From: Pseudomonadota bacterium
GTDB lineage: Bacteria; UBA10199; 2-02-FULL-44-16; JAAZCA01
NCBI GenBank assembly: GCA_043798915.1
Contig: JAZDOG010000020.1
Coordinates: forward strand, 32,001-96,000
Direction: 5' to 3'
Length of the DNA: 64,000 nucleotides
Shown: piece by piece, positions 8,989 through 51,628 of the stretch
Position numbering within the stretch: position 1 is the first letter of the stretch
Layout of the letters: every line of letters starts with the position of its first letter
Position numbers and translations under genes: made by a program
The notes under the pieces: generated by a model
The model's database searches: none
What the model was told of the DNA's origin: nothing
What the model saw: the letters and a program-made list of their open reading frames with translations, nothing else

Positions 8989-10104
8989 ATGACCGATGAG
9001 TCGCCGATGAGCAATCAGGTTTATCAACTGCCTTCTCGCATTCCAGAGCTCGACGGCCTGCGTGCGATAGCCGTGCTGGCTGTGATGAGCGCTCATGCGG
9101 GGCTTCCCGGCTTCGCACGGGGTGGTGTGGGTGTTTATCTTTTTTTCGTGCTTTCAGGATTTCTCATCACCGGAATTCTCCTGGATGCTGACAAGGGTAA
9201 AGGGTATTTCAAAAACTTTTACGCTCGGCGTGCGCTTCGCATTTTTCCGATTTATTACATGACATTTGCGTTTCTATTGGCGCTGGCCTTTCTTCAGGGC
9301 TTGAAAACAAGCGATTGGCCCTGGTATCTTGCCTATGCTCAAAATTATCTTTTCATCTTCAAACATTTTCCGCCGAATTTCCCCAGCTGCTTTAATCATA
9401 CCTGGTCCCTGGCCGTCGAGGAGCAGTTTTATTTCATATGGCCATTCCTCATTGGGATCCTCGGAAAAAGACGAGTGTTCATCGTCTCCCTGATCTTCAT
9501 CCCTTTGGCCATCGGCTTGCGTTGCTTTCATATCCAGGCAATCTTTGGTCCCGAGGTTTGGACGCTGCCCGTGAATCTGAATTCGCTCGGCGGGGGGGCG
9601 GCGCTGGCAGTGGCGGTCCGTACCTTTGACCGGGAAACCCTGAAGAAAGTCTGCCGTGCGCTCTTCCTTGGTGGTGCGATCGCCTGGGTTGTGATTCAGA
9701 TATTCGTGAGCCCATATGGAATGGGCTGGCTTGAGCTTGGAATGGTTTGCTGCACTACAATAACATTCACCGGGCTCGTTGGAACAGCTGTGCTGTCACC
9801 GCCGTCGCTACTATCCGGTTTTCTTAGCCTTGGCTGGATGCGCTATATCGGCAAAATCAGTTATGGATTATATCTGTACCACCCGCTGGTTTTTCTTTTG
9901 ATGTGGCACTTGTTCAGGGGGCAAGTGGTCAGGCCAGATCATGGCAAGGGTGTGATCCTTTTGTTGGTCCTGGCCAAATTCGGTTTGACTTTCGTTGCAG
10001 CCTCCTTATCATGGCTCCTTTTGGAAAAGCGCATGAATGGTTTCAAGAAGAAGTTTGAATATACCAGAGTCACCCTGAGCCGCATTGCCCAAGCTCCGAT
10101 GTAA
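8989..10104 (+). CDS. Acyltransferase-3 (OafA/YrhL) family O-acyltransferase
   Basis: 'LDGLRAIAVL', 'FFVLSGFLI', 'RRALRIFP', 'WSLAVEEQFY', 'GKISYGLYLYH'. Confidence 0.93.
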   Translation: MTDESPMSNQVYQLPSRIPELDGLRAIAVLAVMSAHAGLPGFARGGVGVYLFFVLSGFLITGILLDADKGKGYFKNFYARRALRIFPIYYMTFAFLLALAFLQGLKTSDWPWYLAYAQNYLFIFKHFPPNFPSCFNHTWSLAVEEQFYFIWPFLIGILGKRRVFIVSLIFIPLAIGLRCFHIQAIFGPEVWTLPVNLNSLGGGAALAVAVRTFDRETLKKVCRALFLGGAIAWVVIQIFVSPYGMGWLELGMVCCTTITFTGLVGTAVLSPPSLLSGFLSLGWMRYIGKISYGLYLYHPLVFLLMWHLFRGQVVRPDHGKGVILLLVLAKFGLTFVAASLSWLLLEKRMNGFKKKFEYTRVTLSRIAQAPM

Positions 10105-10150
10105 GGAGTTAGCGGATGCGAGGGTGCTTGTTGAAGGGTGAGAACAGGAG

Positions 10151-11575
10151 GTGTTGATGTGCTCAGCTGATGGTGAAACAGGAACGAGGAAGAGCTTCAT
10201 CGCTGCGACCATAAAGTTTTTTTCGTCATGGCGTGGAATGCATTTTTTTATCTTGGCATTTGTTATGGCGGTTGCCTTTTCTTTTATTTTTCCGCAAAAA
10301 ATTGAATATGATTCCACGCAGTATGAGCATCTTGGATGGAACATTTCCCAGGGAAACGGTTTGTCAGATGCCTCGGCAGCGCCTTTTGTGCCGACCTCAG
10401 GCCGCGAGCCGGTCTATCCGCTCTTTATCAGTTTGTTTTATCTTTTTTTTGGAAGACATCCGGAAATTGTGCTGGTAGCCCAGTCGCTGTTGCATGCAAC
10501 CACTGCTCTTTTGATCTACCGGCTGGCCTGTCGATGGTTTTCCTTAAGCGTGGCCGGTCTGGCCGGCTTTCTGACCGCTGTGGATCCAACCCTTTATGGT
10601 TTTTGCAGCTACTTGCTGACAGAACCCCTGGCTCTCTTTTTGCTGGCCTCGTTCGTCTATTTGGCGGTTTTCGTGCGAGAGCGGAATGGTCTGGCTTTCT
10701 CCTTGGCGGGGGGGGCACTGCTCGGCGCTTTGGCGCTTTGTCGTGCGGTGTTTATGTTTTTGCCGGTTGTTTTTTTTGTGTTTATGGTGTTTTCGCGTTT
10801 TCCATCAAAACTTGGAAAAAGGATCGTTTATGGGATGATTCTGATCCTTGTTTTTATGAGTGTTCTTTCGCCATGGTTGTATAGGAATAAAAAGGCATTC
10901 GGTGTTGCTTTTATCACCGCGCGTTCAGGCGAGATGCTTTTGTGGAAGGCGTTGAGGACAGAGCACTCCCCAAGGGAAATGCTCGTGGATCTTGTTTATG
11001 GAACATCGGATACTCTGGGCCGAAAATTATTTCCCGATGATTATTCGAGGATGAATATCAGCGGGGAACATGGTCCGGAAAACGTATATCCCATTGGCGT
11101 AGAGAGATATATGCGGTATCTTGCCGATGGGTACTCTGAGCTTGAGGCCGATCGCCTGCTTCGAATCGATGCGATTAGGATAATTATAAAACGCCCCTTT
11201 AAATACATCGCTCAGTGTTTTGTCGACGCGTGGAAGCTCTCTTTTTTTGAGATAGTTCCATTTGCCTACTCAACACGGTTCAATCAGTTGATGCAAAGGG
11301 GAGATTGTCTGTTAGGCTTGGGGACCGCCCTGAGGATACTGCTTCGTTATGTGTATTCATGGCTGATAATTTTATTGGCTGTCAAAGGATTTCTGGAAGT
11401 CCAAAAAGAATGGAGACGAAAATGTCTGTTGCTGGTACCAATTATTTATACGATAGGGACGGCCATTCCATTTGATGTTAGCGGGAGATACGTCTATCCT
11501 GCATTGCCATTTATCCTGATTTTAGCATCGGTATCGGTTGTCAATTTCATTGAAAGAAAACAGCCGTCTTTGTAA
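10151..11575 (+). CDS. GT-C (ArnT/PMT_2-like) polyprenyl-phosphate-sugar-dependent glycosyltransferase
   Basis: Multi-TM; 'YDSTQY', 'REPVYPLF', 'LTEPL', 'SPWLYRN', C-terminal 'GRYVYP'; start may be the later ATG (MHFF). Confidence 0.8.
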   Translation: MLMCSADGETGTRKSFIAATIKFFSSWRGMHFFILAFVMAVAFSFIFPQKIEYDSTQYEHLGWNISQGNGLSDASAAPFVPTSGREPVYPLFISLFYLFFGRHPEIVLVAQSLLHATTALLIYRLACRWFSLSVAGLAGFLTAVDPTLYGFCSYLLTEPLALFLLASFVYLAVFVRERNGLAFSLAGGALLGALALCRAVFMFLPVVFFVFMVFSRFPSKLGKRIVYGMILILVFMSVLSPWLYRNKKAFGVAFITARSGEMLLWKALRTEHSPREMLVDLVYGTSDTLGRKLFPDDYSRMNISGEHGPENVYPIGVERYMRYLADGYSELEADRLLRIDAIRIIIKRPFKYIAQCFVDAWKLSFFEIVPFAYSTRFNQLMQRGDCLLGLGTALRILLRYVYSWLIILLAVKGFLEVQKEWRRKCLLLVPIIYTIGTAIPFDVSGRYVYPALPFILILASVSVVNFIERKQPSL

Positions 11576-11593
11576 AACCGCATTTCATGAGAG

Positions 11594-12505
11594 TCAGGGT
11601 TTCTCCGATTTTGTGAGCATGGACAGCGTTCTATCGGGGAGCGCGACGCCATTCTGTTCAGCCAAAAACCCCATTGCCATTATTATAGAGACGGCAATCA
11701 AAAAAAAGCTCGCCAGCGATATTGCGAAACGAGCCTGGGCCGAATATATGGCCAACAGGATCATGAATGCGCCGGTTATTGACATTGCAGTGATCAAGGC
11801 GAGAAATGCCTTGATCGGATTATAGAGCAGGATTGCCCTCACTATAAGCTGGAGCGTCCACAGCACGTCCCTTTTGAATTTAATCTTGCTTTTGCCCTTT
11901 CTTGCGAAATACGTTATCGGCGTGTGCGCGACGAATCTGCCGGAGAGGAGGCTGACCAAGGTGATCGTTGTCGTGATGGAGAAGCCGCCACACAGCACTC
12001 GCCAGAAGTCGGTGAAGATATCCTTTCTTATTACGCGCATGCCGCTGTTTACATCCGGTATGGAGCGGCCGGTCGCAGATTCGCACAGCATGCGGAAGAA
12101 TATACGAGCTATTCGCAGGATTATGTTTCCATGATATATCTTTCCTTGTCTGGCCCCGACCAGCATGTCGAGATTCCTGTCGGCCAGGCTCTGCACCATT
12201 TCTGGCAAAACCTCCACCGGGTATGTTCCATCGGCATCTATCATGGCGATGATTTCGTGTTTTGCGTTTGCGACTCCTGTCTTTACGGAATTGCCGTACC
12301 CTATGTTGCAGGGGTGTCTGAAGACTCTCGCCCCGGCCTCCTCCGACATTCGGGCTGTTTCATCGGCGGAGCCGTCGTCCACGACGATGAGCTCAGCCTC
12401 GATATCGGAGGAATCAAATGCCAGTTTGAGTTTTTCAAGCATTTCAGCAATATGCGGGCCCTCATTGAGGGCCGGGATAACAACGGAGACTCCTAACCGT
12501 TTCAT
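11594..12505 (-). CDS. GT2 polyprenyl-phosphate glycosyltransferase (DPM1/ArnC-like) with 2 C-terminal TM helices
   Basis: 'VVIPALNE', 'VVDDGSAD', 'NIGYG', 'IDADGTY', 'PDVNSGMR'. Confidence 0.9.
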   Translation of the reverse strand: MKRLGVSVVIPALNEGPHIAEMLEKLKLAFDSSDIEAELIVVDDGSADETARMSEEAGARVFRHPCNIGYGNSVKTGVANAKHEIIAMIDADGTYPVEVLPEMVQSLADRNLDMLVGARQGKIYHGNIILRIARIFFRMLCESATGRSIPDVNSGMRVIRKDIFTDFWRVLCGGFSITTTITLVSLLSGRFVAHTPITYFARKGKSKIKFKRDVLWTLQLIVRAILLYNPIKAFLALITAMSITGAFMILLAIYSAQARFAISLASFFLIAVSIIMAMGFLAEQNGVALPDRTLSMLTKSEKP

Positions 12506-12516
12506 AATTTTACCCC

Positions 12517-13737
12517 CTACTTAAGATTGCGCATGTGCTGAGCCAGCTCAACAGACGGCAACAGCTCCTCAGCGATATGTTTTCCGATAAGCTCCGATGT
12601 TTCTTCAGTGGGATGGCTGGTGTCATCGAAAAAAATGTCGCGCGGACGCATTATTTTTTTGCCCCATTTTTCCAGATCGATCACCTGCAATCCACGCTGC
12701 TTTGCCAATCGGCGCAGGTCGAAGTTATACTGTTCAATAAGCTTTGCAAGGACATAGGGATTGTTTGTATAGGGCGGCAGAAAGCCGACCTTAAAGGCCC
12801 TTTCGCTCGGCTCTTCCTCCATGATATAAAGGCTTGGTATTGTGATTATGACTACCTTGCTTCCCACCGATTGCATTTCATCTATGATCTTTGCAATATC
12901 CTTCAAAAATTTTGGGTTGTATCCTTCTGCGCTGTGAACCTGCGGTGCATTTTTGTCGGGAGCCATTGCCCTCCTGAGCCATCCCTGCGATTCAATTTTC
13001 CGCATGCCTATAACCAGATTGGCAAGTCTCATGAAAGCGCTTCTCGCAAGTCGGAAACTCGCTAAATAGCTTTCAATTCCTCCAGCCGGACCTTCCTCCC
13101 ATATGGAATTCCATCCAAGATATATTGTTGTGATTTCAGGTCGAAGCTCCTTCATTTTTTCTATGTTGAGGAGGACGTCCTTTGGTCGATAGCCTTCAAC
13201 ACCGGCATTGACGACCTCAATCCTTTTACCCCGGTTGCGAAGTTCGCGTTCCAACGCTCTCGGGTAGGAATATTTGTCAAATAACGACCGAAATGTGCAT
13301 GAATCGCCGATAGTCAGAATCCTCGGTTGGCTGTGCGTCTTGTCTATCTCGGGTCCTTTGAATCCATCGCTGTTTATCTGATATATGATTTCATCCTGAT
13401 TGAAATTTAATTGAGAGGCTCGGTCGGTTAAATGTTTGACGGCCAAAAATCGCCCTGAATATTCTTTTGCGTTGACTGTTTGTTCCAATGTTCTCGAGAT
13501 TCCAGGCCTCAAAACCCAGCTGAGCGATGGATGTTTCGGGTCTGGCATCTCATATTCGTTCAAATCTGGTGTTGCAGCGAGGTTCAAAAAAGTTTTGATT
13601 TCGTCACGAAAGACGAATGCGAGGCGCGAACCGCCTTCTATAATTATTCCTGTCAATACAATCACAAGGAAGATAAACAAGAACCGAACGTCGTGCGAGC
13701 GTCTTTTAGCGTTCTTTATTTTCCCTCCGTCAGCCAT
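12517..13737 (-). CDS. Membrane-anchored SGNH/GDSL-fold protein
   Basis: N-terminal TM; 'INSDGFK', 'TIGDSCTF', 'VNAGVEGY', 'GWN', 'DTSH'; paralog of 37203-38378. Confidence 0.85.
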   Translation of the reverse strand: MADGGKIKNAKRRSHDVRFLFIFLVIVLTGIIIEGGSRLAFVFRDEIKTFLNLAATPDLNEYEMPDPKHPSLSWVLRPGISRTLEQTVNAKEYSGRFLAVKHLTDRASQLNFNQDEIIYQINSDGFKGPEIDKTHSQPRILTIGDSCTFRSLFDKYSYPRALERELRNRGKRIEVVNAGVEGYRPKDVLLNIEKMKELRPEITTIYLGWNSIWEEGPAGGIESYLASFRLARSAFMRLANLVIGMRKIESQGWLRRAMAPDKNAPQVHSAEGYNPKFLKDIAKIIDEMQSVGSKVVIITIPSLYIMEEEPSERAFKVGFLPPYTNNPYVLAKLIEQYNFDLRRLAKQRGLQVIDLEKWGKKIMRPRDIFFDDTSHPTEETSELIGKHIAEELLPSVELAQHMRNLK

Positions 13738-13797: not shown

Positions 13798-14583
13798 TCA
13801 GGCCTTTTCGGCCAGGACTGTCCATGACATGTCATTGCAATGAACCAGTCTGATGTTTTTCAAGGGCAGCCCTTCCGTGAGGCCGAGGACCTCGTCCCTC
13901 TTCCAGTAGTGGCAAATGCTTGGAATGAGCTGGTCAAAAACAATTCCCTCCACATTTCTGAAGGGCATCTGTTGTAAATGGCGGAAGTATTCTTCTTTAT
14001 TGGGAAATAACAAATATAGCTTCAATATGCAGGCAAGCATTTTTGCGAGCAGGTGATTCAACATGGGCGGCATTCGCGACGTAAGGTGAATTCTCAATGG
14101 GTCAAAAAGCTTCACGTACGTTTCATTTCCTTCATAGGCATACACGTATACGATTAAAGCGCCTCCTCTTTTCAAAGCGCGCACTAGGTTCTCCAGCGCC
14201 CGGCGAGGGTCCGCCAGGCAATGGACCACGCCGATTGAAAAGACTATGTCGAACCTGTCCTGGAAATCGATGTCATAGATCGATCGAAAGGCAACCTCGC
14301 AGTTGGAAAAGCCTTCCAGATTGCTTTTTGCCGCGGCCACCGTCCTGTGATCGTGATCGAACGCATAGCCGGAAGCAGCCCCGGCTTTGAGGGCAAAGAA
14401 GCTGTTGCGCCCGTTCCCGCAGCCGGCATCCATAAAGCTCTTTCCCTTGAATATGGAGGGGTAGAGGCCTCCGGACCAGCGCCGGAACTGCTCTTCATTG
14501 ATCGGCATGATTTCTCTAAATAAATTCCACTCGTAGCCGAACTGTTTTTCGGTTCCAATCGGATGGTCGCTGTTTTTTTTCAT
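13798..14583 (-). CDS. Class I SAM-dependent methyltransferase
   Basis: 'FGYEW', 'MDAGCGNGR', 'FDIVFSIGVVH', 'LKRGG'. Confidence 0.88.
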   Translation of the reverse strand: MKKNSDHPIGTEKQFGYEWNLFREIMPINEEQFRRWSGGLYPSIFKGKSFMDAGCGNGRNSFFALKAGAASGYAFDHDHRTVAAAKSNLEGFSNCEVAFRSIYDIDFQDRFDIVFSIGVVHCLADPRRALENLVRALKRGGALIVYVYAYEGNETYVKLFDPLRIHLTSRMPPMLNHLLAKMLACILKLYLLFPNKEEYFRHLQQMPFRNVEGIVFDQLIPSICHYWKRDEVLGLTEGLPLKNIRLVHCNDMSWTVLAEKA

Positions 14584-35332: not shown

Positions 35333-37162
35333 ATGCTGATTCTGGGGATATCCGCTTACTACCATGACAGCGCTGCCTGCATCGTCAGGGATGGCGTCAT
35401 CGTCGCCGCTGCGCAGGAGGAGCGTTTTTCGCGCAAGAAGCACGACATGCGCTTCCCTTCTCATGCGGTCGCCTGTTGCCTCGCGGAGGCTCAGGCCGGG
35501 TTCAAGGACGTGGACGTTGTTGCCTTCTACGAAAAACCTTTCGTGAAGTTCGAACGCCTCCTCGAGACCTATCTCACGTTCGCTCCAAAGGGTCTTCGAT
35601 CCTTCGCCATGGCGATGCCGGTCTGGATCAAGGAGAAGCTCTTCCTCAAGAGGACGATCGAGAGGGAGCTTCGGTCGCGTTTCGGCAAAGGGGCGCCCCG
35701 CTTCATCTTCTCCACGCATCATCAGGCCCACGCTGCCTCCGCGTTTTTTCCTTCGCCGTTTGATGAGGCTGCGATTCTGTGCCTGGATGCTGTGGGGGAA
35801 TGGACGACGACTTCCGCGTGGACCGGGCGCGGCAACGCGGTGAAACCCCTATGGGAGCTGCGCTTCCCGCATTCGCTCGGGATGCTCTACTCCGCTTTCA
35901 CGTACTACACCGGCTTCAAGGTCAACTCCGGCGAGTACAAGGTGATGGGGCTGGCCCCCTATGGCCGTCCAACCTATGTCAGGACGATCCTCGACAACCT
36001 GATCGACTTGAAGCCCGACGGCACCTTCCGCCTCAACATGGAATATTTCGGCTTCTGCACGGGACTCGCGATGACCAACGCGCGTTTCCACGGGCTCTTC
36101 GGCGGAGAGCCTCGCAAACCGGAGACCGGACTGACGCAGAAGGAGATGGACCTGGCGCGCTCGATACAGGAGGTCACGGAGGAGATAGTCATGCGCCTGG
36201 GGCGATCGCTCCATGGCGACACGGGGCTTGGGAGCCTCTGCCTTGCCGGGGGCGTCTCGCTCAACTGCGTTGCCAACGGGAGGCTCTTGCGCGAAGGGCC
36301 CTTCAAAAGAATATGGATCCAGCCCGCTTCGGGCGATGCTGGAGGGGCGGTGGGGGCCGCGCTTGCAGCCTGGCACACGCACTTCGGCAACGAGCGGCAT
36401 CCCCAAAACCCCGACGGCATGAAGGGGGCGTATCTCGGCCCGGCCTTCTCCGGCGATGAGATCGAGGCGTTCCTCAAGGGGCACGATATCCCCGGCCGTT
36501 TCGTCGCAGAGAAGGATATATTCGATCTTGTCGCCGGCGAGCTTTCCGCCGGCAAGGTCATCGGCTGGTTTGCCGGGCGGATGGAGTTTGGCCCACGGGC
36601 GCTGGGGGCGCGCAGCATCATCGGCGACGCCAGGTCCGCAAAGATGCAGTCGATCATGAATCTGAAGATCAAGCATCGCGAGTCCTTCCGGCCCTTCGCG
36701 CCTTCGGTCTTGAGGGAGCGCGTCGCCGACTACTTCGAGATGGATTGCGACAGCCCCTACATGCTCCTGGTCGCCGCGGTTAACCCGGAGCGCAGGATAG
36801 CTCCCGCTGAGAACGCGGGGAATCTCTGGGGAATCGATCTCTTGAATGTCCCCAGGTCGGACATCCCCGCGGTGACCCACATCGATTACTCGGCAAGGGT
36901 CCAGACGGTCCATCGCGAGACCAACCCCCGCTACTGGCAGCTGATCAAGGCGTTCGAGAAGCTCACCGGATGCGGCGTGATCGTTAACACCTCCTTCAAC
37001 GTGCGCGGCGAGCCGATTGTCTGCACGCCCGAAGACGCATATCGCTGCTTCATGAGGACGGAGATGGACCTGCTCGTCATGGAAAACTTCGTTCTGGATA
37101 AGAGGGAGCAGCGCGGTATCGCAGAAGATAATGACTGGATGAAGGAGTTTGAGCTCGATTAG
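35333..37162 (+). CDS. O-carbamoyltransferase, NodU/CmcH/TobZ family (SxtI-like)
   Basis: 'GISAYYHDSAA', 'EERFSRKKH', 'HHQAHAASAF', 'GEYKVMGLAPYG', 'EFGPRALG', 'RESFRPFAP', 'NTSFN'. Confidence 0.96.
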   Translation: MLILGISAYYHDSAACIVRDGVIVAAAQEERFSRKKHDMRFPSHAVACCLAEAQAGFKDVDVVAFYEKPFVKFERLLETYLTFAPKGLRSFAMAMPVWIKEKLFLKRTIERELRSRFGKGAPRFIFSTHHQAHAASAFFPSPFDEAAILCLDAVGEWTTTSAWTGRGNAVKPLWELRFPHSLGMLYSAFTYYTGFKVNSGEYKVMGLAPYGRPTYVRTILDNLIDLKPDGTFRLNMEYFGFCTGLAMTNARFHGLFGGEPRKPETGLTQKEMDLARSIQEVTEEIVMRLGRSLHGDTGLGSLCLAGGVSLNCVANGRLLREGPFKRIWIQPASGDAGGAVGAALAAWHTHFGNERHPQNPDGMKGAYLGPAFSGDEIEAFLKGHDIPGRFVAEKDIFDLVAGELSAGKVIGWFAGRMEFGPRALGARSIIGDARSAKMQSIMNLKIKHRESFRPFAPSVLRERVADYFEMDCDSPYMLLVAAVNPERRIAPAENAGNLWGIDLLNVPRSDIPAVTHIDYSARVQTVHRETNPRYWQLIKAFEKLTGCGVIVNTSFNVRGEPIVCTPEDAYRCFMRTEMDLLVMENFVLDKREQRGIAEDNDWMKEFELD

Positions 37163-37202
37163 GCCAAGGATAAGCGCAACATGTTTCACCGGGAGGGTAT
37201 CT

Positions 37203-38378
37203 ATGGCTGACATGAAGAAACAACACGGTTTCGGAGCGCGGCTAGCCTTCGCCGTCATCGTTATCTTTTTAGCGGCGGCCCTCATAGAGGCGGCGGCGCG
37301 GATCATCTTCCCCTCCAGAGACGCAATCAAGACCATCATGAAGATGGATGCACGCCGGGATCTCAACGAATATGAGATGCCCGACCCGCGCTATCCCTAT
37401 ATCAACTGGGTGCTGAGGCCCAGTTTTTCGCGCACGTTCAAAGAGGCGATCGAGGCCAAACAGAGAGAGGGGCGGGCCTTGGGCGCGGCTAATCTCGAGA
37501 AATTAGCGGCGGATCTGGGAGTTGGCGAGGACGAGGTGGTCTATCGGATCAATAGCGATGGTTACAAGGGTCCGGAGATCGACAAGGCTCATAGCAAGAC
37601 CCGCATCCTGACGATCGGAGACTCCTGTACCTTCGGATCCCTTGTTGATAAACATTCCTATCCGCGGGTACTGGAGCGAGAGCTCCTCGCCCTGGGCAAG
37701 AATGTCGAGGTCATCAACGCCGGCGTGGAGGGCTACCATCCGAAAAACGTACTTTTGCGGATGGACGAGCTTAAGGCCCTGAAGCCCGACATAGCTACCA
37801 TCTACATCGGCTGGAATGCCCTGGATGGTGAACCGGCTACCGGTCTCGAGCGCTCTCTCTACAGCGTCCGGCTCGCGAAGAGCGCCCTCAGAAAGATATT
37901 CCATTTTTTCGATTCGCCCCAGAAGGCGGCCCTCTTCGAGTACAGCCAGCCCAGGCATCCTGATGCGAGCGCACCGGATGTCAAATCGCTCGATGGATAT
38001 AGTCCCCTGTTCATGAAGGATGTTGAGAAAATTGCGGAGGAACTCCGGTCGATCGGATGCAAGGTCGTCTTCGTCACGCTCCCGAGCCTCTACGTGATGT
38101 GGGAGGTCCCCAGCGAAACGGCGATGAAGGTGGGAAGCCTGCCGCCTTACACGGACAACCCCTACGTATGGGCTAAGGTGGTCGAGCAGTACAACATCGA
38201 CATCAGGAAGCTTGCGCAGGAGGATGGACTTGCGGTGGTCGACCTCGAGCGCTGGAGCCGCACGGCGCTCGTGCCCCGCGACGCCTATTTCGGCGACTCC
38301 GTGCACCTCGATGATCGTGGGCAGGAGATGATCGGGGAATACATGGCGGAGGAGATCTCCCCGCTTCTCCCGAAATGA
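37203..38378 (+). CDS. Membrane-anchored SGNH/GDSL-fold protein
   Basis: Basic N-terminus then a TM helix; 'TIGDSCTFG', 'INAGVEGY', 'GWN', 'DSVH' catalytic D-x-x-H. Confidence 0.88.
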   Translation: MADMKKQHGFGARLAFAVIVIFLAAALIEAAARIIFPSRDAIKTIMKMDARRDLNEYEMPDPRYPYINWVLRPSFSRTFKEAIEAKQREGRALGAANLEKLAADLGVGEDEVVYRINSDGYKGPEIDKAHSKTRILTIGDSCTFGSLVDKHSYPRVLERELLALGKNVEVINAGVEGYHPKNVLLRMDELKALKPDIATIYIGWNALDGEPATGLERSLYSVRLAKSALRKIFHFFDSPQKAALFEYSQPRHPDASAPDVKSLDGYSPLFMKDVEKIAEELRSIGCKVVFVTLPSLYVMWEVPSETAMKVGSLPPYTDNPYVWAKVVEQYNIDIRKLAQEDGLAVVDLERWSRTALVPRDAYFGDSVHLDDRGQEMIGEYMAEEISPLLPK

Positions 38379-38385
38379 GCGCTGC

Positions 38386-38787
38386 ATGAAGATGCAAAAA
38401 AAATGCACGACGAAGGACCTGCGCTTCTTTGGATTTTTGCTCGCCGCGTTTCTGGCCCTGGTGGGCATCTGGCCAGCCCTCTTCCGCCATCAGCCGGCAA
38501 GAATCTGGGTGCTGGCAGCAGCGGCACTGCCTCTCCTGATAGCTGTCCTGCGGCCATCGGTCCTGGCTTGGCCTTGTCGGGGCTGGCTCTCGATCGGCAA
38601 TATCATCGGGGGTGTCGTCACCCGGATCGTCCTGGGCGCTATTTTTTTTCTCATGTTCACGCCGGTGGGATTGATCCGGAGGATATTAAAGCGCGACACG
38701 CTCTCCTTGCGCTACGATGCGGGAGCTGATAGCTACAGAATAGCGGTGAACCTGAATGATATCCAAAGCATGGATCGGCAATATTAG
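38386..38787 (+). CDS. SxtJ-like membrane protein
   Basis: 'KDLRFFG', 'W...G...G.V.TRIVLG..FF..FTP.G..RR...D.L', C-terminal 'MDRQY'; usual position next to a carbamoyltransferase. Confidence 0.82.
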   Translation: MKMQKKCTTKDLRFFGFLLAAFLALVGIWPALFRHQPARIWVLAAAALPLLIAVLRPSVLAWPCRGWLSIGNIIGGVVTRIVLGAIFFLMFTPVGLIRRILKRDTLSLRYDAGADSYRIAVNLNDIQSMDRQY

Positions 38788-38808
38788 ATGTCGGGAGGAG
38801 AAAAGAGC

Positions 38809-38961
38809 ATGATATCGTTTCTGAGAGAACTCTGGGCCTTCGCGAAAGCGCGGAAGAAGTATTGGCTCCTTCCTTTCATCGTCAGCCTGCTCCTCCTGGG
38901 AGTCCTGATCGTCTTCACGGAGGGCAGCGCGGTGGCCCCCTTCATCTACACGCTCTTTTAG
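38809..38961 (+). CDS. SxtK-like/DUF5989 small protein (50 aa; not in ORF track)
   Basis: Translated by hand: MISFLRELWAFAKARKKYWLLPFIVSLLLLGVLIVFTEGSAVAPFIYTLF*; preceded by a GGAGG SD. Confidence 0.9.
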   Translation: MISFLRELWAFAKARKKYWLLPFIVSLLLLGVLIVFTEGSAVAPFIYTLF

Positions 38962-39017: not shown

Positions 39018-39950
39018 ATGCGCTCTATTAAGCCATTCAGGCTCGTTCCCGGGGACCGCGTCGGTGTCGTGGCCCCGGCCTCCTCCTTCGAGAGGCGGGG
39101 ATTGAGGCGCGGGCTGGAGAAACTGCGCTGGTGGGGATTCGACCCGGTCGTGCCGAAAGAGGTTTTGAAGCACGCCCATCGTCCGCTCGAGCGCGAACGG
39201 ACGCGACGTTATGAGGAGAAGGCCTTCGAGATCGTCCGGATGTTCATGGACCCGACGATCGCCGCCATATTTTGCGCCGAGGCGGGCTATGGGACGATAG
39301 CCCTCATACCGTTTCTTGAGAAGGTCGATCTTTCGCCTTATCCAAAGGTCTTCCTCGGATTCTCGGACATCACGATACTCCTTCTCTATTTCCACGTGCG
39401 CTACGGATGGGTCACCTTTCACGGCCCGACGGTGGCTCAGGAGTTCTACAAGGGTATGCCGCCTGTCACGGAGATCGCGCTGCAGGAGGCGATCACCAAA
39501 CGCACCCGGCTGGGAGATGTCTTCGGCAAGGACCTGGAGGTGATTGTGCGGGGAGAGGGGCGCGGCCCGATCATCGGCGGCAATCTGACCAGGATGCTCA
39601 GGACGCTCGGGACATCCTTCGAGATCGATACGCGCGACCGGATACTCTTCATAGAGGAGGTGGACGAAGGGCACATCCAGATCGACGGCGACCTTAATCA
39701 GTTGAGGCTCGCCGGCAAGTTCGAGGGGCTCAGGGGCATCGTCTTTTCTGAGATGACAGGGTGCATGAACGGCGATAAGAGGTCGGTGCTGCGGTATCTC
39801 AGGCGGTATTTCAAAGGGGCGTCGTTCCCGGTGCTGGCCGGTTTTCCATCCGGGCACGGGGTCGAGAACATAACTCTGCCGATTGGCATTCGGGCGCATA
39901 TGTCATCTTCGCCGCCGAGGCTGATTTTGGAAGAGGGAGGGGTGAGGTGA
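39018..39950 (+). CDS. S66 family LD-carboxypeptidase (LdcA/MccF-like)
   Basis: 'VVAPAS', 'FLGFSDIT' nucleophile, 'TFHGP', 'GGNL', 'FIEE', 'GH...TLPIG'. Confidence 0.92.
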   Translation: MRSIKPFRLVPGDRVGVVAPASSFERRGLRRGLEKLRWWGFDPVVPKEVLKHAHRPLERERTRRYEEKAFEIVRMFMDPTIAAIFCAEAGYGTIALIPFLEKVDLSPYPKVFLGFSDITILLLYFHVRYGWVTFHGPTVAQEFYKGMPPVTEIALQEAITKRTRLGDVFGKDLEVIVRGEGRGPIIGGNLTRMLRTLGTSFEIDTRDRILFIEEVDEGHIQIDGDLNQLRLAGKFEGLRGIVFSEMTGCMNGDKRSVLRYLRRYFKGASFPVLAGFPSGHGVENITLPIGIRAHMSSSPPRLILEEGGVR

Positions 39951-39954
39951 CGAT

Positions 39955-40284
39955 ATGGGTCAGCAACTCAAAGAAGCTCTGATGAATGCCGGGCTTGTCT
40001 CGCAGAAGGACATCGAGCGCGAGAAGGTCAAGAAGCAGCACTTGAGCAAGAGCTCGAAGATGCGCGAGGACCAGATCCGCATCATGTGTGAGGTCTGCGG
40101 CAAGACCGCGCCGGACGTTGAGCGCTACACGCACAAGAACAGGAAGATAACTGGCAAGGAGTGGCTCTGCATCCCCTGTGCGGACGAACATTACATAGAT
40201 GACGAGTGCCGCGCGACCTCCCAGAGCTCGCAGTCGAAGGCGGGGCTTTTCCGCCGCCAATATGGCAGGACAAAAAAGTTCTGA
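39955..40284 (+). CDS. Hypothetical basic protein with CxxC...CxxC putative zinc site
   Basis: Good SD, typical codon usage, 'CEVC' and 'CIPC'; followed by a terminator. Confidence 0.8.
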   Translation: MGQQLKEALMNAGLVSQKDIEREKVKKQHLSKSSKMREDQIRIMCEVCGKTAPDVERYTHKNRKITGKEWLCIPCADEHYIDDECRATSQSSQSKAGLFRRQYGRTKKF

Positions 40285-40359: not shown

Positions 40360-40563
40360 TCATGCCGGCGTTACATTCGCGGCCTGCAGACCCTTGGGGC
40401 CCTTGACGACCTCGAACTCGACGGTTTGGCCTTCCTTCAGGCTCTTGAAACCTTCGCCACCGATTGCGGAGAAGTGAACGAATACGTCCTCCCCACCACC
40501 CTCCGGCGCGATGAATCCGAAGCCCTTCGCGTCGTTGAACCACTTCACTGTTCCCTTTGCCAT
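40360..40563 (-). CDS. Cold-shock protein (CspA family)
   Basis: '[18 protein letters not shown]', 'VFVHFSAI', '[10 protein letters not shown]'. Confidence 0.97.
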
Positions 40564-40607
40564 ACAAAAACCTTCCTTTCTTTGATCGCCGACCATGCAC
40601 CCAACGC

Positions 40608-50627: not shown

Positions 50628-51628
50628 AAAAACGATTTGCCGACATAAATATCTTGAAAGGGATAGGCATTATCCTGGTCGTATGGGGACATATTGGCAT
50701 CACTTGTTCGTACGATAGCGGGGCTTACCTGCCATGGTATGAGATCAAGAGTATAATTTATTCATTTCACATGCCGCTATTTTTTATAGTTTCGGGTTTT
50801 CTCGCGGCGTATTCTACTGAGAACAGGCAAATTGATTACCTTGCTTATGTAAAAAAAATTGTCCCCAGATTTGTCATCCCGTTTTTTTCTTTTTCACTCA
50901 TTATAGCCACAGCTAAGCTTTTATCTGTTCATTTCTCACAATCGGGTCTGATGTACCCGGTAAGCGTTGGTACGATTTATTGGAATTTCATAAACCCCTA
51001 TTTTGGATATGCTCCTCTGCTCTGGTTTATCTACACATTATTCATTATTCAGCTGGCATATCCATTGCTTGTTCGTTTGCTGGAGCATGATGCGCTTGTG
51101 CTCGTCATCTCGCTGCTCTTTACCCCATATGATTTGCCTGCCGTTTTCTGCATAGGCCCGGTTGTTATCCACCTGCCGTTCTTTGCCATTGGAAGCATTC
51201 TTTTTAAAACAAATTTCAGGCAGCCATCGATGAAAAAAATACACATCCTTTGGTCGTGTGTTGCAATTATGCTATTTGCAATGCTCCATGTATACTTCTG
51301 GCATGCTACTTTTTCATATTTTTTCTTGGGGTGTTTAGGGACATATGTCTGTTGGGTGCTTTCCAGTATGCTGGCTGAAATCAAATTATATTTTATGGAG
51401 TATATAGGGAAAATAAGTTTGGATATATATTTATGGCATACTACTTTCAACGGAGTCTTTCTATTTATGTTCTCAATAATTTTACCTGCAAACTCGTTTT
51501 GGCTTCTTGCGGTGACGGTGTGTTTCTCGATAGTTTTAGTGAACGTATGCCTGGCTAAGATTTTAGTCAGGTTTCCTAAGATATGCTATGCGCTCTATGG
51601 CAGGGCGGCTGAAGCTAACTCAATGTGA
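50624..51628 (+). CDS. Acyltransferase-3 family protein (AT-rich)
   Basis: 'LKGIGIILVVWGH', 'YSFHMPLFFIVSG', 'LWF', 'IGKISLDIYLWH'. Confidence 0.9.
   Translation: MKKRFADINILKGIGIILVVWGHIGITCSYDSGAYLPWYEIKSIIYSFHMPLFFIVSGFLAAYSTENRQIDYLAYVKKIVPRFVIPFFSFSLIIATAKLLSVHFSQSGLMYPVSVGTIYWNFINPYFGYAPLLWFIYTLFIIQLAYPLLVRLLEHDALVLVISLLFTPYDLPAVFCIGPVVIHLPFFAIGSILFKTNFRQPSMKKIHILWSCVAIMLFAMLHVYFWHATFSYFFLGCLGTYVCWVLSSMLAEIKLYFMEYIGKISLDIYLWHTTFNGVFLFMFSIILPANSFWLLAVTVCFSIVLVNVCLAKILVRFPKICYALYGRAAEANSM

What the first reader, a model, noticed from the sequence alone, without database searches (positions are those of the whole stretch)
35333..38961. Candidate MBOAT-free transmembrane carbamoyl relay: carbamoyltransferase + SGNH + SxtJ-like + micropeptide ending in a DltX-type FIYxxF motif
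Seen: four tightly packed co-directional genes. They encode a soluble NodU/CmcH carbamoyltransferase, an N-anchored SGNH protein with intact GDS/DxxH, a small SxtJ-like membrane protein, and an unannotated 50-aa peptide. The peptide has a basic N-terminus (KARKK), one TM helix and the C-terminus GSAVAPFIYTLF; the positive-inside rule predicts this tail is periplasmic. No MBOAT gene is present in the window. Known: in teichoic-acid D-alanylation the small protein DltX ends in an F-I-Y-x-x-F motif whose tyrosine carries the acyl group from MBOAT DltB to SGNH-like DltD, and AlgI/PatA-type MBOATs have the same tail. SxtI/J/K-like triads occur in many genomes, but as far as I know SxtJ and SxtK have no assigned mechanism. 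Inference: the carbamoyl group is activated in the cytoplasm, passed through an SxtJ/SxtK membrane complex onto the peptide tyrosine, then to the SGNH serine and onto the periplasmic glycan. That would be a new route for extracytoplasmic O-carbamoylation.
Basis: partly seen in the sequence, partly recalled or inferred. Interest (0 to 1): 0.88.

Follow-up and report, generated by a model that had tools for sequence, protein, structure and literature searches.

The report
Carbamoyltransferase module with tyrosine-tailed membrane microprotein
Four neighbouring genes form a widespread, uncharacterised unit in which a carbamoyl-adding enzyme travels with a tiny membrane protein ending in the same tyrosine motif that other bacteria use to carry acyl groups across the membrane to esterase-like enzymes, so it may be a new way of decorating cell-surface sugars.

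Summary
Window 35333-38961 encodes a NodU/TobZ-type carbamoyltransferase (CT), an N-anchored SGNH protein, SxtJ and a 50-aa DUF5989 peptide (K) ending APFIYTLF.

- The tail F-I-Y-x-x-F directly before the stop is present in 80 of 80 loci from many phyla.
- CT, SxtJ and K lie together in 71 of those 80 loci.
- The only enriched neighbour is this SGNH family (46 of 80 loci).
- In the window's phylum, all 16 genomes with this SGNH type are among the 18 K-positive genomes, and 0 of 47 K-negative genomes have it. In sampled Pelagibacteraceae the split is 32 of 40 against 3 of 41.
- The window's genome has no MBOAT. Thirteen of 18 K-positive relatives lack one.
- AlgI/PatA-type MBOATs of the same phylum end F[IL]YF[QN]F.

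What is not supported:
- K is not a DltX family member by sequence.
- The complex prediction gave no verdict.
- How a carbamoyl group would cross the membrane is unknown.
- No chemistry is shown.

The layout equals sxtI-J-K-L. I found no paper linking DUF5989 to the tyrosine shuttle. Earlier notes of this scan, unchecked here, describe soluble tyrosine-ended microproteins with CT and SGNH genes on phage DNA.

Best reading (about 45%): an MBOAT-independent carbamoyl-tyrosine relay.

The parts
35333..37162 (+). O-carbamoyltransferase of the NodU/CmcH/TobZ type, SxtI-like, 609 aa. No hydrophobic anchor was seen.
   Evidence: PF02543 4.9e-103 and PF16861 9.8e-75. Full-length phmmer matches to the solved NovN 9s2t (9.6e-101), GdmN and TobZ. 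It is the only PF02543 match in the genome.
37203..38378 (+). SGNH/GDSL protein with an N-terminal membrane anchor, 391 aa, SxtL-like. Catalytic Ser141 is at 37623-37625 and His368 lies in D-S-V-H.
   Evidence: PF13472 7.3e-18. GGGAGG lies 6 nt before ATG 37203. AF2 model pLDDT 75, with helix 4-35 followed by an SGNH core. Z about 20 to TesA-type SGNH structures. G139, S141 and H368 are invariant in 27 of 27. One N-terminal hydrophobic helix in 27 of 27.
38386..38787 (+). SxtJ-family small integral membrane protein, 133 aa.
   Evidence: PF19588 1.3e-11. AF2 pLDDT 90 with helices 9-33, 40-55 and 57-100. Invariant W67 and P93; near-invariant R13, F15, G16 and Y117 in 37 sequences. No PDB fold match with E <= 0.001.
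38809..38961 (+). DUF5989 (SxtK-like) microprotein, 50 aa: a basic amphipathic N-terminus, one transmembrane helix and a 14-residue tail.
   Evidence: PF19451 2.7e-25. GGGAGGA lies 9 nt before ATG 38809. 3200 related 90%-identity clusters and 3017 50%-identity representatives. K/R count 5.0 on the N side against 0.04 in the tail.
38941..38958 (+). C-terminal hexapeptide F45-I46-Y47-T48-L49-F50, directly followed by TAG. Tyr47 is the candidate carrier residue (codon 38947-38949).
   Evidence: Sequence read. F-I-Y-x-x-F then a stop in 80 of 80 loci. It fits the FXYXXF acyl-shuttle motif of DltX and PatA (PMC12148441) and the F[IL]YF[QN]F tails of 7 MBOATs of the same phylum.
12517..13737 (-). 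Second SGNH paralogue of the same family, 406 aa, 25 kb upstream in the same polysaccharide locus. It is a possible second acceptor-specific transferase fed by the same shuttle.
   Evidence: 51% identity over 384 residues, E 7e-147. PF13472 3.5e-15. Second-best match of the A2 profile in the genome, 3.7e-40.

Best explanation
The four genes are one conserved functional unit with the same gene set as sxtI-J-K-L. It sits in a PEP-CTERM/Wzc-type exopolysaccharide locus.

Proposed mechanism:
1. The soluble CT makes carbamoyl-adenylate from carbamoyl phosphate and ATP. This is established chemistry of TobZ-type enzymes, recalled from memory.
2. CT does not act on the final substrate. It carbamoylates Tyr47 in the invariant C-terminal F-I-Y-T-L-F of the single-pass microprotein K.
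3. SxtJ serves as the membrane scaffold or conduit that brings the tail and the enzyme together.
4. The O-aryl carbamate on the extracytoplasmic tail is handed to Ser141 of the membrane-anchored SGNH protein. That protein, and probably its paralogue at 12517-13737, transfers the carbamoyl group to a hydroxyl of the exported polysaccharide.

This is the logic of DltX/DltB/DltD and PatA/PatB, with a carbamoyl group instead of an acyl group and CT plus SxtJ in place of the MBOAT.

Shown here: gene content, motif invariance, predicted orientation of K, tight co-inheritance of CT, SxtJ, K and this SGNH family, and independence from MBOAT.

Inferred: every chemical step, the acceptor, and above all how a cytoplasmic enzyme reaches a tyrosine predicted to lie outside.
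For: Motif
- The tail F-I-Y-x-x-F directly precedes the stop in 120 of 120 close clusters and in 80 of 80 loci from Alpha-, Beta- and Gammaproteobacteria, Nitrospira, Cyanobacteria, Acidobacteriota, Gemmatimonadota, Bacteroidota, Omnitrophota, Planctomycetes, Actinomycetota and others.
- 121 of the 150 best 50%-identity representatives end this way. Nearly all the rest look like point changes of the stop codon.
- The published shuttle motif is FXYXXF with an invariant acylated Tyr at the extracellular C-terminus of DltX and of PatA. NgPatA ends FIYANF, and the acetylated hexapeptide alone donates to the SGNH protein PatB (PMC12148441, passages).
- 7 of 20 MBOAT loci of the window's phylum end F[IL]YF[QN]F. 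These 7 were the only frames with such an end among 1917 closed frames.
- A profile comparison aligns K with these tails in register: helix, linker, PFIY.

Orientation
- K has 5.0 K/R before the helix against 0.04 in the tail.
- SGNH family members have one N-terminal helix in 27 of 27, with the N side more basic: 3.2 against 2.3 K/R.

Linkage
- CT, SxtJ and K lie together in 71 of 80 loci.
- Among 482 neighbouring ORFs the only widely shared family is the SGNH. It is in 32 of 80 loci by BLAST clustering, and the next family is in 8.
- By profile the SGNH is in 46 of 80 loci. In 34 of them it lies within 200 bases of the triad (my count of its table).

Genome-wide co-occurrence
- Window's phylum, 65 genomes: K in 18. 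The SGNH type at E <= 1e-15 is in 16, all of them K-positive, and in 0 of 47 K-negative genomes. The pattern is spread over 9 families.
- High-scoring CT is in 17 of the 18 K-positive genomes. The 18th has the CT cut by a contig end.
- Pelagibacteraceae sample, 81 genomes: SGNH at E <= 1e-13 in 32 of 40 K-positive against 3 of 41 K-negative genomes. This includes one unpublished genome, G124; without it the count is 31 of 39.

No MBOAT needed
- None in this genome.
- 13 of 18 K-positive relatives have none. The 5 with both carry them on different contigs.

Enzyme competence
- The SGNH Ser and His are invariant.

Chemistry (established knowledge, recalled)
- O-aryl carbamates are classical carbamoylating agents of active-site serines.
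Against: - K is not a DltX relative by sequence. PF12459 gave no match in the genome even at E <= 10. A K profile found no DltX chain in the PDB at E <= 10. hhalign against MBOAT tails gave only 14% probability, P 0.0019.
- CT homologues with solved structures (NovN, GdmN, TobZ) carbamoylate their final substrates directly, without carriers (recalled).
- SxtJ has no conserved His, Asp or Ser that could play the MBOAT histidine's part. It has no known fold relative. Its topology is unresolved: the model shows a single 44-residue helix, while the charges suggest both of its ends are cytoplasmic.
- No route is known by which carbamoyl-adenylate, or the CT active site, could reach an extracytoplasmic tyrosine.
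- The SGNH is not universal. 34 of 80 loci have none within about 8 kb. 2 of 18 and 8 of 40 K-positive genomes have none detectable. Of 5 genomes checked for a distant copy, 3 had a strong one.
- The window's own SGNH has 3 K/R before and 4 after its helix, so its periplasmic location is not secure.
- The nearest solved structures of the SGNH are ordinary esterases.
- Two AT3 acyltransferases in the window could in principle be SGNH partners.
- Ten K-CT read-through 'fusions' exist. If genuine they would put the tail in the cytoplasm. They look like stop-codon errors.
Confidence: 0.45

Rival explanations
1. Membrane tether or assembly factor. SxtJ and K only recruit or activate the CT at the inner face of the membrane, where it directly carbamoylates a lipid-linked sugar or a cytoplasmic precursor. 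The SGNH protein acts separately in the periplasm as an esterase, or as an editing 'decarbamoylase', which is the old annotation of SxtL.
For: - CT is full-length homologous to NovN, GdmN and TobZ, which need no carrier (recalled).
- SxtJ lacks conserved catalytic-type residues.
- The conserved basic amphipathic N-terminus of K and the conserved basic C-tail of SxtJ face the cytoplasm by charge and could bind CT.
- SxtL has been proposed to be a decarbamoylase on family grounds only (PMC2885083, passages).
- The SGNH fold matches are esterases.
Against: - It does not explain why the 12 residues at the far, extracytoplasmic end of K are the most conserved part: G, S, A, P, F, I, Y, T, L and F are invariant in 27 of 27, and the motif is in 80 of 80 loci.
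- It does not explain why the protein must end exactly after the motif.
- It does not explain why this SGNH type occurs only in K-positive genomes of the phylum: 16 of 16, and 0 of 47 K-negative.
Confidence: 0.25
2. A tyrosine relay that does not cross the membrane. K Tyr is carbamoylated by CT and passed to the SGNH serine, but all partners face the same side, the cytoplasm or the inner leaflet. The membrane parts only localise the reaction next to the lipid-linked substrate.
For: - The window's SGNH has ambiguous flanking charges, 3 against 4 K/R.
- Ten clusters show K read straight into CT through a 4-9 residue linker.
- Earlier notes of this scan describe soluble tyrosine-ended microproteins with CT and SGNH genes in phages. 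These are unchecked AI notes.
- This reading removes the unexplained transmembrane step.
Against: - K has 5.0 K/R before its helix and 0.04 after, a very strong N-in/C-out signal.
- The SGNH family as a whole is more basic on the N side.
- The residue after the terminal F in the 'fusions' is almost always one that a single base change in a stop codon gives (L, Q, K, R, W, S, C, Y, G). Most are single-member clusters on short contigs.
Confidence: 0.12
3. Non-covalent role of the tail. The FIYTLF end is a docking or gating peptide, for example a plug of the SGNH active site or an SxtJ-binding element. The tyrosine never carries the group.
For: Only the motif and the co-occurrence are shown. No covalent intermediate is shown. 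Profile similarity to true shuttle tails is weak.
Against: The same hexapeptide frame, with the Tyr fourth from a free C-terminus after a transmembrane helix, is exactly what was shown to be acylated in DltX and PatA (PMC12148441).
Confidence: 0.1
4. Coincidence. The tail resembles the shuttle motif by chance, and the SGNH is linked only because both sit in glycan loci.
For: A six-residue pattern with three fixed positions is short. Many SGNH genes lie in polysaccharide loci.
Against: - Linkage holds in streamlined Pelagibacteraceae genomes, where the neighbours are housekeeping genes such as M23 peptidase, a Cys/Met PLP enzyme, TENA and MFS.
- It also holds across 9 families of the window's phylum.
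- No other frame in the window, and none but MBOATs in 20 control loci, ends this way.
Confidence: 0.05

Closest known systems
DltX-DltB-DltD (teichoic-acid D-alanylation) and PatA-PatB / AlgI-type MBOAT-SGNH O-acylation systems
   Same: - A helix followed by a short linker and a C-terminal F-x-Y-x-x-F with an invariant Tyr, predicted outside the membrane.
- A membrane-anchored SGNH partner with intact Ser and His.
- A donor activated in the cytoplasm and, probably, an acceptor polymer outside.
   Different: - No MBOAT.
- K does not match the DltX model.
- The donor enzyme is an ATP-dependent carbamoyltransferase, not an acyl-CoA or acyl-carrier-protein user.
- The membrane partner is a 133-aa protein without a conserved histidine.
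- The group would be a carbamoyl, not an acyl.
sxtI-sxtJ-sxtK-sxtL of cyanobacterial saxitoxin clusters
   Same: - The same four gene types. Published sizes are 1839, 405, 165 and 1281 bp (PMC2679770 table). Cyanobacterial loci fetched here show CT, SxtJ, a 165-bp K gene and a 421-aa SGNH in that order.
- The literature says SxtJ and SxtK are uncharacterised and 'work in conjunction' with SxtI.
   Different: - Here the set sits in an exopolysaccharide locus, in the order CT-SGNH-J-K.
- That SxtK itself belongs to DUF5989 is inferred from size and position. I did not fetch it.
- SxtL is annotated as a decarbamoylase, the opposite of the role proposed here.
Stand-alone O-carbamoyltransferases TobZ, NovN, GdmN, NodU, CmcH
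   Same: Two-domain architecture and full-length sequence similarity.
   Different: - Those enzymes act directly on small-molecule hydroxyls and have no SxtJ, K or SGNH companions (recalled).
- The NodU equivalog score is 139.5 against a cut-off of 1000 bits.
AT3-SGNH O-acetyltransferases (OatA type)
   Same: An extracytoplasmic tyrosine intermediate that feeds an SGNH domain (PMC12148441 discussion).
   Different: - The tyrosine sits in a loop of a 10-helix AT3 domain fused to the SGNH.
- Here the AT3 genes of the window are not adjacent to either SGNH gene.
- I did not test whether AT3 genes co-vary with K.

Membership tests
DltX (Pfam PF12459) | Sequence matches the family model | tested here: not met
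   PF12459 against the whole genome, K gene included, at E <= 10: 0 matches. A K profile against the PDB at E <= 10 found no DltX chain.
DltX (Pfam PF12459) | Single-pass microprotein with an extracytoplasmic C-terminus | tested here: met
   By prediction only. 50 aa with one hydrophobic helix. K/R 5.0 before the helix and 0.04 in the tail, over 27 sequences.
DltX / bacterial MBOAT tails (acyl-shuttle motif) | C-terminal hexapeptide F-x-Y-x-x-F with an invariant Tyr | tested here: met
   80 of 80 loci, 120 of 120 close clusters, 121 of 150 distant representatives. The motif definition comes from PMC12148441.
DltX / bacterial MBOAT tails (acyl-shuttle motif) | The tyrosine carries the transferred group covalently | not testable with these tools
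   Needs mass spectrometry of K.
MBOAT-SGNH acylation systems (DltB/D, PatA/B, AlgI/J/X) | An MBOAT protein with a conserved His is present | tested here: not met
   PF03062: 0 matches in the 97%-complete genome. 13 of 18 K-positive genomes of the phylum have none.
MBOAT-SGNH acylation systems (DltB/D, PatA/B, AlgI/J/X) | A dedicated SGNH-fold partner with an N-terminal anchor and a catalytic Ser | tested here: met
   for the protein. for the linkage.
MBOAT-SGNH acylation systems (DltB/D, PatA/B, AlgI/J/X) | The SGNH partner is structurally closest to the known transferases (PatB, DltD, AlgX/J) | tested here: inconclusive
   The top 50 rows of Foldseek and of VIA-align are esterases and CgnD. 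A family that is not listed is not excluded.
SxtI/J/K/L-type carbamoylation gene set | CT with Carbam_trans_N and Carbam_trans_C, plus an SxtJ-family gene and a DUF5989 gene, adjacent | tested here: met
   The triad is present in 71 of 80 related loci.
SxtI/J/K/L-type carbamoylation gene set | A GDSL/SGNH gene of the SxtL kind in the set | tested here: met
   One profile built from the window's SGNH and its relatives scores the 420-422-aa SGNH genes that follow K in cyanobacteria at 1e-146 to 1e-153. Pairwise identity to the window's protein is only about 20%. SxtL itself was not fetched.
SxtI/J/K/L-type carbamoylation gene set | Lies in a saxitoxin biosynthetic cluster | tested here: not met
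   The neighbours are a Wzc-like kinase, a PEP-CTERM ATPase, a VanZ-like protein, glycosyltransferases and an LD-carboxypeptidase.
NodU/CmcH/TobZ O-carbamoyltransferases | Kae1-like N-domain plus YrdC-like C-domain, with full-length similarity to solved members | tested here: met
NodU (NCBIfam NF041651 equivalog) | Score over the equivalog cut-off | tested here: not met
   139.5 bits against a cut-off of 1000.
SGNH hydrolase superfamily | Block I GDS serine, block V D-x-x-H, and the flavodoxin-like fold | tested here: met
   G139, D140, S141 and H368. Z 20.7, rmsd 2.4 over 164 residues to 4rsh; Z 19-20 to TesA.

The most novel reading that the evidence does not exclude
A very widespread envelope-modification machine that needs no MBOAT or AT3 protein. 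It is found in at least 567 species-level genomes, about half of the Pelagibacteraceae genomes sampled, Nitrospira and many cyanobacteria. A cytoplasmic ATP-dependent carbamoyltransferase loads a carbamoyl group on the C-terminal tyrosine of a 50-aa microprotein held by SxtJ. The tail carries it to one or several periplasmic SGNH transferases that O-carbamoylate surface glycans or other exported molecules. As a corollary, the SxtL-type SGNH proteins would be the terminal carbamoyltransferases rather than decarbamoylases. DUF5989 and SxtJ, unexplained since 2008, would get a function.
Probability: 0.4. Interest if true: 0.9.

Novelty: new variant of a known kind. Interest (0 to 1): 0.78.

Why it matters
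If the relay is real, it extends the recently established tyrosine acyl-shuttle principle in three ways: to a different chemical group (carbamoyl), to a different activating enzyme (an adenylate-forming carbamoyltransferase), and to a membrane partner unrelated to MBOAT or AT3.

It would assign a function to two families of unknown function, DUF5989 and SxtJ. These occur in thousands of protein clusters, including some of the most abundant marine bacteria.

It would also give a concrete, cheap test: a +43 Da adduct on one tyrosine of a 50-residue peptide.

If the relay is wrong, the strict co-inheritance of four gene families shown here still defines a module whose mechanism is unknown.

Tried and rejected
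- Complex prediction of SxtJ + K + SGNH, each with an alignment and with the SGNH as partner: 'no answer', score 0.00 in two runs, controls not run. This is neither for nor against binding.
- K profile against PDB sequences at E <= 10: only chance transmembrane matches, no DltX.
- ESM Atlas look-up of K: only DUF5989 clusters, no structure.
- Natural fusions as topology evidence (108 longer proteins). About 14 SxtJ-K clusters, 10 K-CT clusters, one K-SGNH and one SGNH-SxtJ-K form exist. All look like stop-codon point changes or frameshifted high-GC ORFs, so I drew no inference from them.
- SxtJ 'longer' search for fused forms: nothing at E <= 0.001 among 2623 candidates. This is weak evidence.
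- SxtJ model against the PDB (Foldseek): best E 2.5, no relative.
- Foldseek and VIA-align of the SGNH model did not list PatB, DltD or AlgX among the top 50 rows. I treat this as inconclusive.
I did not resend it. I clustered the ORFs locally and scanned 34 representatives.
- Small DltX-like ORFs beside the short MBOATs of the phylum: none within the 3-4 kb loci.
- Literature. 'DUF5989': 0 papers. 'acyl shuttle': 6 papers, none on carbamoylation. 'acyl shuttle' with 'carbamoyltransferase': no paper holding both among the 20 best-ranked of 2,224 papers holding either term. SxtJ/SxtK: 11 papers, and those I read in passages call them uncharacterised. Subscription-only papers are outside the library. 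These include the original 2023 DltX mechanism paper, which I only saw cited inside PMC12148441.

Full report
**What is there**

Window 35333-38961 holds four co-directional genes with gaps of 0-40 bases. Pfam identifies them as follows:
- a two-domain O-carbamoyltransferase, CT (PF02543 4.9e-103, PF16861 9.8e-75);
- a GDSL/SGNH protein (PF13472 7.3e-18);
- an SxtJ-family protein (PF19588 1.3e-11);
- a DUF5989 peptide, called K here (PF19451 2.7e-25).

The order is CT, SGNH, SxtJ, K. GGGAGG-type ribosome-binding sites precede ATG 37203 (SGNH, 391 aa) and ATG 38809 (K, 50 aa).

The surroundings are an exopolysaccharide locus. It includes a Wzc-like tyrosine kinase, a PEP-CTERM-system ATPase, a VanZ-like protein and glycosyltransferases. 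An LD-carboxypeptidase lies just downstream.

**The peptide**

K reads MISFLRELWAFAKARKKYW, then a 17-18-residue hydrophobic helix, then TEGSAVAPFIYTLF and a stop.

The family is large and unusually conserved:
- 3200 clusters at 90% identity are related, and the best 120 are 69-100% identical.
- 3017 representatives of 50%-identity clusters are related.

The last twelve residues are the most conserved part. G39, S40, A41, A43, P44, F45, I46, Y47, T48, L49 and F50 are invariant in a 27-sequence sample.

The tail pattern holds widely:
- F[IV]YT[LIV]F ends 120 of 120 close clusters.
- F-I-Y-x-x-F followed by a stop ends 80 of 80 loci taken from species-representative genomes of more than ten phyla.
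- Among the 150 best-scoring distant representatives, 121 end F-x-Y-x-x-F. Nineteen keep the motif but run on into unrelated sequence, and ten are garbled at the very end.
- In those 29, the residue after the last F is almost always one that a single base change in a stop codon produces. I read them as errors or recent mutations.

K is the only stop-closed frame of 20 aa or more in the whole 64-kb window that ends F.Y..F.

The charge distribution is extreme: 5.0 K/R before the helix and 0.04 in the tail. N-in/C-out is therefore a strong prediction.

**Comparison with the known tyrosine shuttle**

From PMC12148441 (passages read):
- Other bacterial MBOATs carry the same motif at their own C-terminus.
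- PatA auto-acetylates this Tyr.
- The acetylated hexapeptide FIYANF is sufficient as donor for the SGNH protein PatB.

To compare with real sequences, I extracted MBOAT genes from the window's own phylum. Seven of 20 MBOAT loci are long AlgI/PatA-type proteins ending F[IL]YF[QN]F, one of them ...NPFIYFQF. These seven are the only frames with such an end among 1917 closed frames in those loci.

A profile-profile comparison aligns K with these tails in register (helix, linker, PFIY). The probability is only 14% and the P-value 0.0019.

K does not match the DltX Pfam model or any PDB chain of DltX.

So K has the architecture and the motif of a shuttle tail, but membership in the DltX family is not shown.

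**Co-occurrence at the locus level**

In the 80 loci, single-sequence searches find CT, SxtJ and K together in 71. They find CT and K in 2 more, SxtJ and K without CT in 2, and K alone or with an SGNH in 5. All five genomes that I checked from the last two groups have a high-scoring CT elsewhere.

I clustered 482 ORFs lying within 3.5 kb of the triads. The only widely shared family is the SGNH, with 38 proteins in 32 loci. The next cluster occurs in 8 loci and is confined to cyanobacteria.

A profile built from these SGNH proteins finds a member in 46 of 80 loci. In 34 of them it lies within 200 bases of the triad, and it is often present in two to four tandem copies.

Other neighbours are unrelated housekeeping or glycan genes.

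**Co-occurrence at the genome level**

Window's phylum, 65 genomes at 90% completeness or more:
- K is in 18.
- The SGNH type at E <= 1e-15 is in 16.
- All 16 are K-positive, and none of the 47 K-negative genomes has it.
- The two K-positive genomes without it are G047 and G060.
- The pattern is patchy over nine families, so it reflects several gains or losses, although kin are not independent.
- High-scoring CT is in 17 of the 18 K-positive genomes. The 18th has it cut by a contig end. One K-negative genome, G048, also has a high-scoring CT.

Pelagibacteraceae, a sample of 81 genomes:
- K is in 40.
- The SGNH at E <= 1e-13 is in 32 of these 40 and in 3 of the 41 others.
- At E <= 1e-10 the figures are 34 of 40 and 9 of 41.
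- The count includes the unpublished genome G124. Without it, it is 31 of 39.

Of five genomes whose K locus lacks an SGNH, three have a strong copy elsewhere, one has only a weak one, and one incomplete 0.8-Mb genome has none.

The window's own genome has a second paralogue 25 kb upstream, 51% identical.

**MBOAT independence**

- The window's genome (97% complete) has no MBOAT.
- In the phylum, MBOAT is in 18 of 65 genomes and overlaps K in 5. That is what independence predicts. In those five the two genes are never on the same contig.
- AT3 acyltransferases are present: three in the genome and two in the window. None is adjacent to either SGNH gene. I did not test whether AT3 genes co-vary with K.

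**The other proteins**

- CT aligns over its full length with the solved NovN, GdmN and TobZ. It is the only such gene in the genome.
- The SGNH model has a long N-terminal helix and an SGNH core (pLDDT 75). Its nearest solved structures are ordinary SGNH esterases, with Z about 20. The longest alignment is to CgnD, the hydrolase of the carbamoylated RiPP crocagin. Ser141 and His368 are invariant.
- All 27 aligned SGNH family members have one N-terminal hydrophobic helix, and the N side is on average more basic. The window's own protein is ambiguous, with 3 K/R before the helix and 4 after.
- SxtJ is modelled with high confidence (pLDDT 90) as helices 9-33, 40-55 and one 44-residue helix 57-100. 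It has no structural relative in the PDB. Its invariant residues are W67 and P93. R13, F15, G16 and Y117 are nearly invariant. No conserved His, Asp or Ser lies in the membrane part.
- Charges suggest that the SxtJ 55-66 loop and its basic C-tail are cytoplasmic. This does not fit a single straight third helix, so the SxtJ topology remains open.

**Mechanism**

The simplest account of all these facts is a relay: CT to K-Tyr47 to SGNH-Ser141 to acceptor.

Arguments for it:
- The motif, its position at a free C-terminus outside the membrane, and a dedicated anchored SGNH partner are exactly the features that define the shuttle in Dlt and Pat systems.
- O-aryl carbamates are good carbamoyl donors to active-site serines (recalled chemistry).
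- Multiple SGNH paralogues per K would then be acceptor-specific transferases.

The weak point is the first step. A soluble CT that forms carbamoyl-adenylate in an internal chamber (recalled from TobZ work) must reach a tyrosine predicted to be on the other side. SxtJ shows nothing like the MBOAT histidine or funnel.

The complex prediction gave no verdict. The natural fusions are not trustworthy.

I therefore give the relay 0.45. The rivals are a tether model at 0.25, a same-side relay at 0.12, a non-covalent tail at 0.10 and coincidence at 0.05.

**Relation to what is known and novelty**

The gene association itself is old. sxtI, sxtJ, sxtK and sxtL are adjacent in saxitoxin clusters, with published sizes of 1839, 405, 165 and 1281 bp (PMC2679770, table and passages).
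- SxtJ and SxtK are described as uncharacterised helpers of SxtI.
- SxtL is described as a GDSL lipase that might remove carbamoyl groups (PMC2885083; bioRxiv 10.64898/2026.06.11.731795).
- That SxtK itself is a DUF5989 member is my inference from its size and position.

What I could not find in print is any link between DUF5989/SxtK and the tyrosine shuttle, or any MBOAT-free version of that shuttle. The library lacks most subscription papers.

Earlier notes of this scan report related things on other DNA. These are soluble tyrosine-ended microproteins with CT and SGNH genes in phages (e1-5945606, e1-5970416) and a DltX-like peptide beside an MBOAT in a Gram-negative (e1-1430855). They are unchecked and I did not test them.

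I class the finding as a new variant of a known kind. It is well supported as a conserved four-part module and unproven as a mechanism.

Noticed in passing
window 12517-13737 (-): A second SGNH paralogue, 51% identical to the one in the module. It lies between a GT2 glycosyltransferase (11594-12505) and a methyltransferase (13798-14583). Tandem or multiple SGNH copies per K gene also occur in relatives, with 2-4 copies in several loci.
   Followed up: partly
window 9043-10017 (+) and 50639-51553 (+): Two AT3-family (PF01757) membrane acyltransferases lie in the same window, and a third is on another contig. They are the other known route for extracytoplasmic O-acylation. I did not study them further.
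   Followed up: no
L011, L019, L027, L041 and other cyanobacterial loci, about 9400-12060: In filamentous cyanobacteria CT-SxtJ-K-SGNH is followed by two more 441-445-aa proteins. They match the SGNH profile only weakly (1e-6 to 1e-12) and have no Pfam hit, so they may be highly diverged SGNH-like paralogues.
   Followed up: partly
SGNH model against PDB 8a2n (CgnD): The longest structural alignment of the SGNH model (259 residues, Z 19.5) is to CgnD. CgnD is the very slow 'protease' of the crocagin pathway, which also contains a carbamoyltransferase (CgnI) and a carbamoylated product. This may be a coincidence of fold.
   Followed up: partly
L082-L101 (MBOAT loci of the window's phylum): The phylum has two MBOAT kinds. 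Long ones (473-575 aa) end F[IL]YF[QN]F. Shorter ones (404-449 aa) have a GGHPQG region and no such tail. No DltX-like small ORF lies within about 1.5 kb of the shorter ones.
   Followed up: partly
proteins P0288, P0301, P0303, P0304, P0328, P0346, P0374, P0295, P0298 and others: Public protein sets contain K read through into CT, SxtJ read through into K, and K read through into an SGNH. The residue at the former stop is nearly always one base change away from a stop codon.
   Followed up: yes
L104, L106 (genomes G051, G052): In one family of the phylum CT is followed directly by K and the SGNH, with no SxtJ between them. Within the 3.1-kb loci no SxtJ was detected, so it may lie further away or be dispensable there.
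   Followed up: no
G048 (phylum relative): One K-negative genome has a high-scoring SxtI-type CT (1.4e-112) on the same contig as an MBOAT, about 25 kb apart.
   Followed up: no
window 39019-39950 (+), 39955-40284 (+), 40360-40596 (-): Downstream of the module lie three genes: an LD-carboxypeptidase (S66), which probably starts at ATG 39019 and does not overlap K; a 109-aa Cys-rich ORF without a Pfam match; and a cold-shock-like ORF.
   Followed up: no
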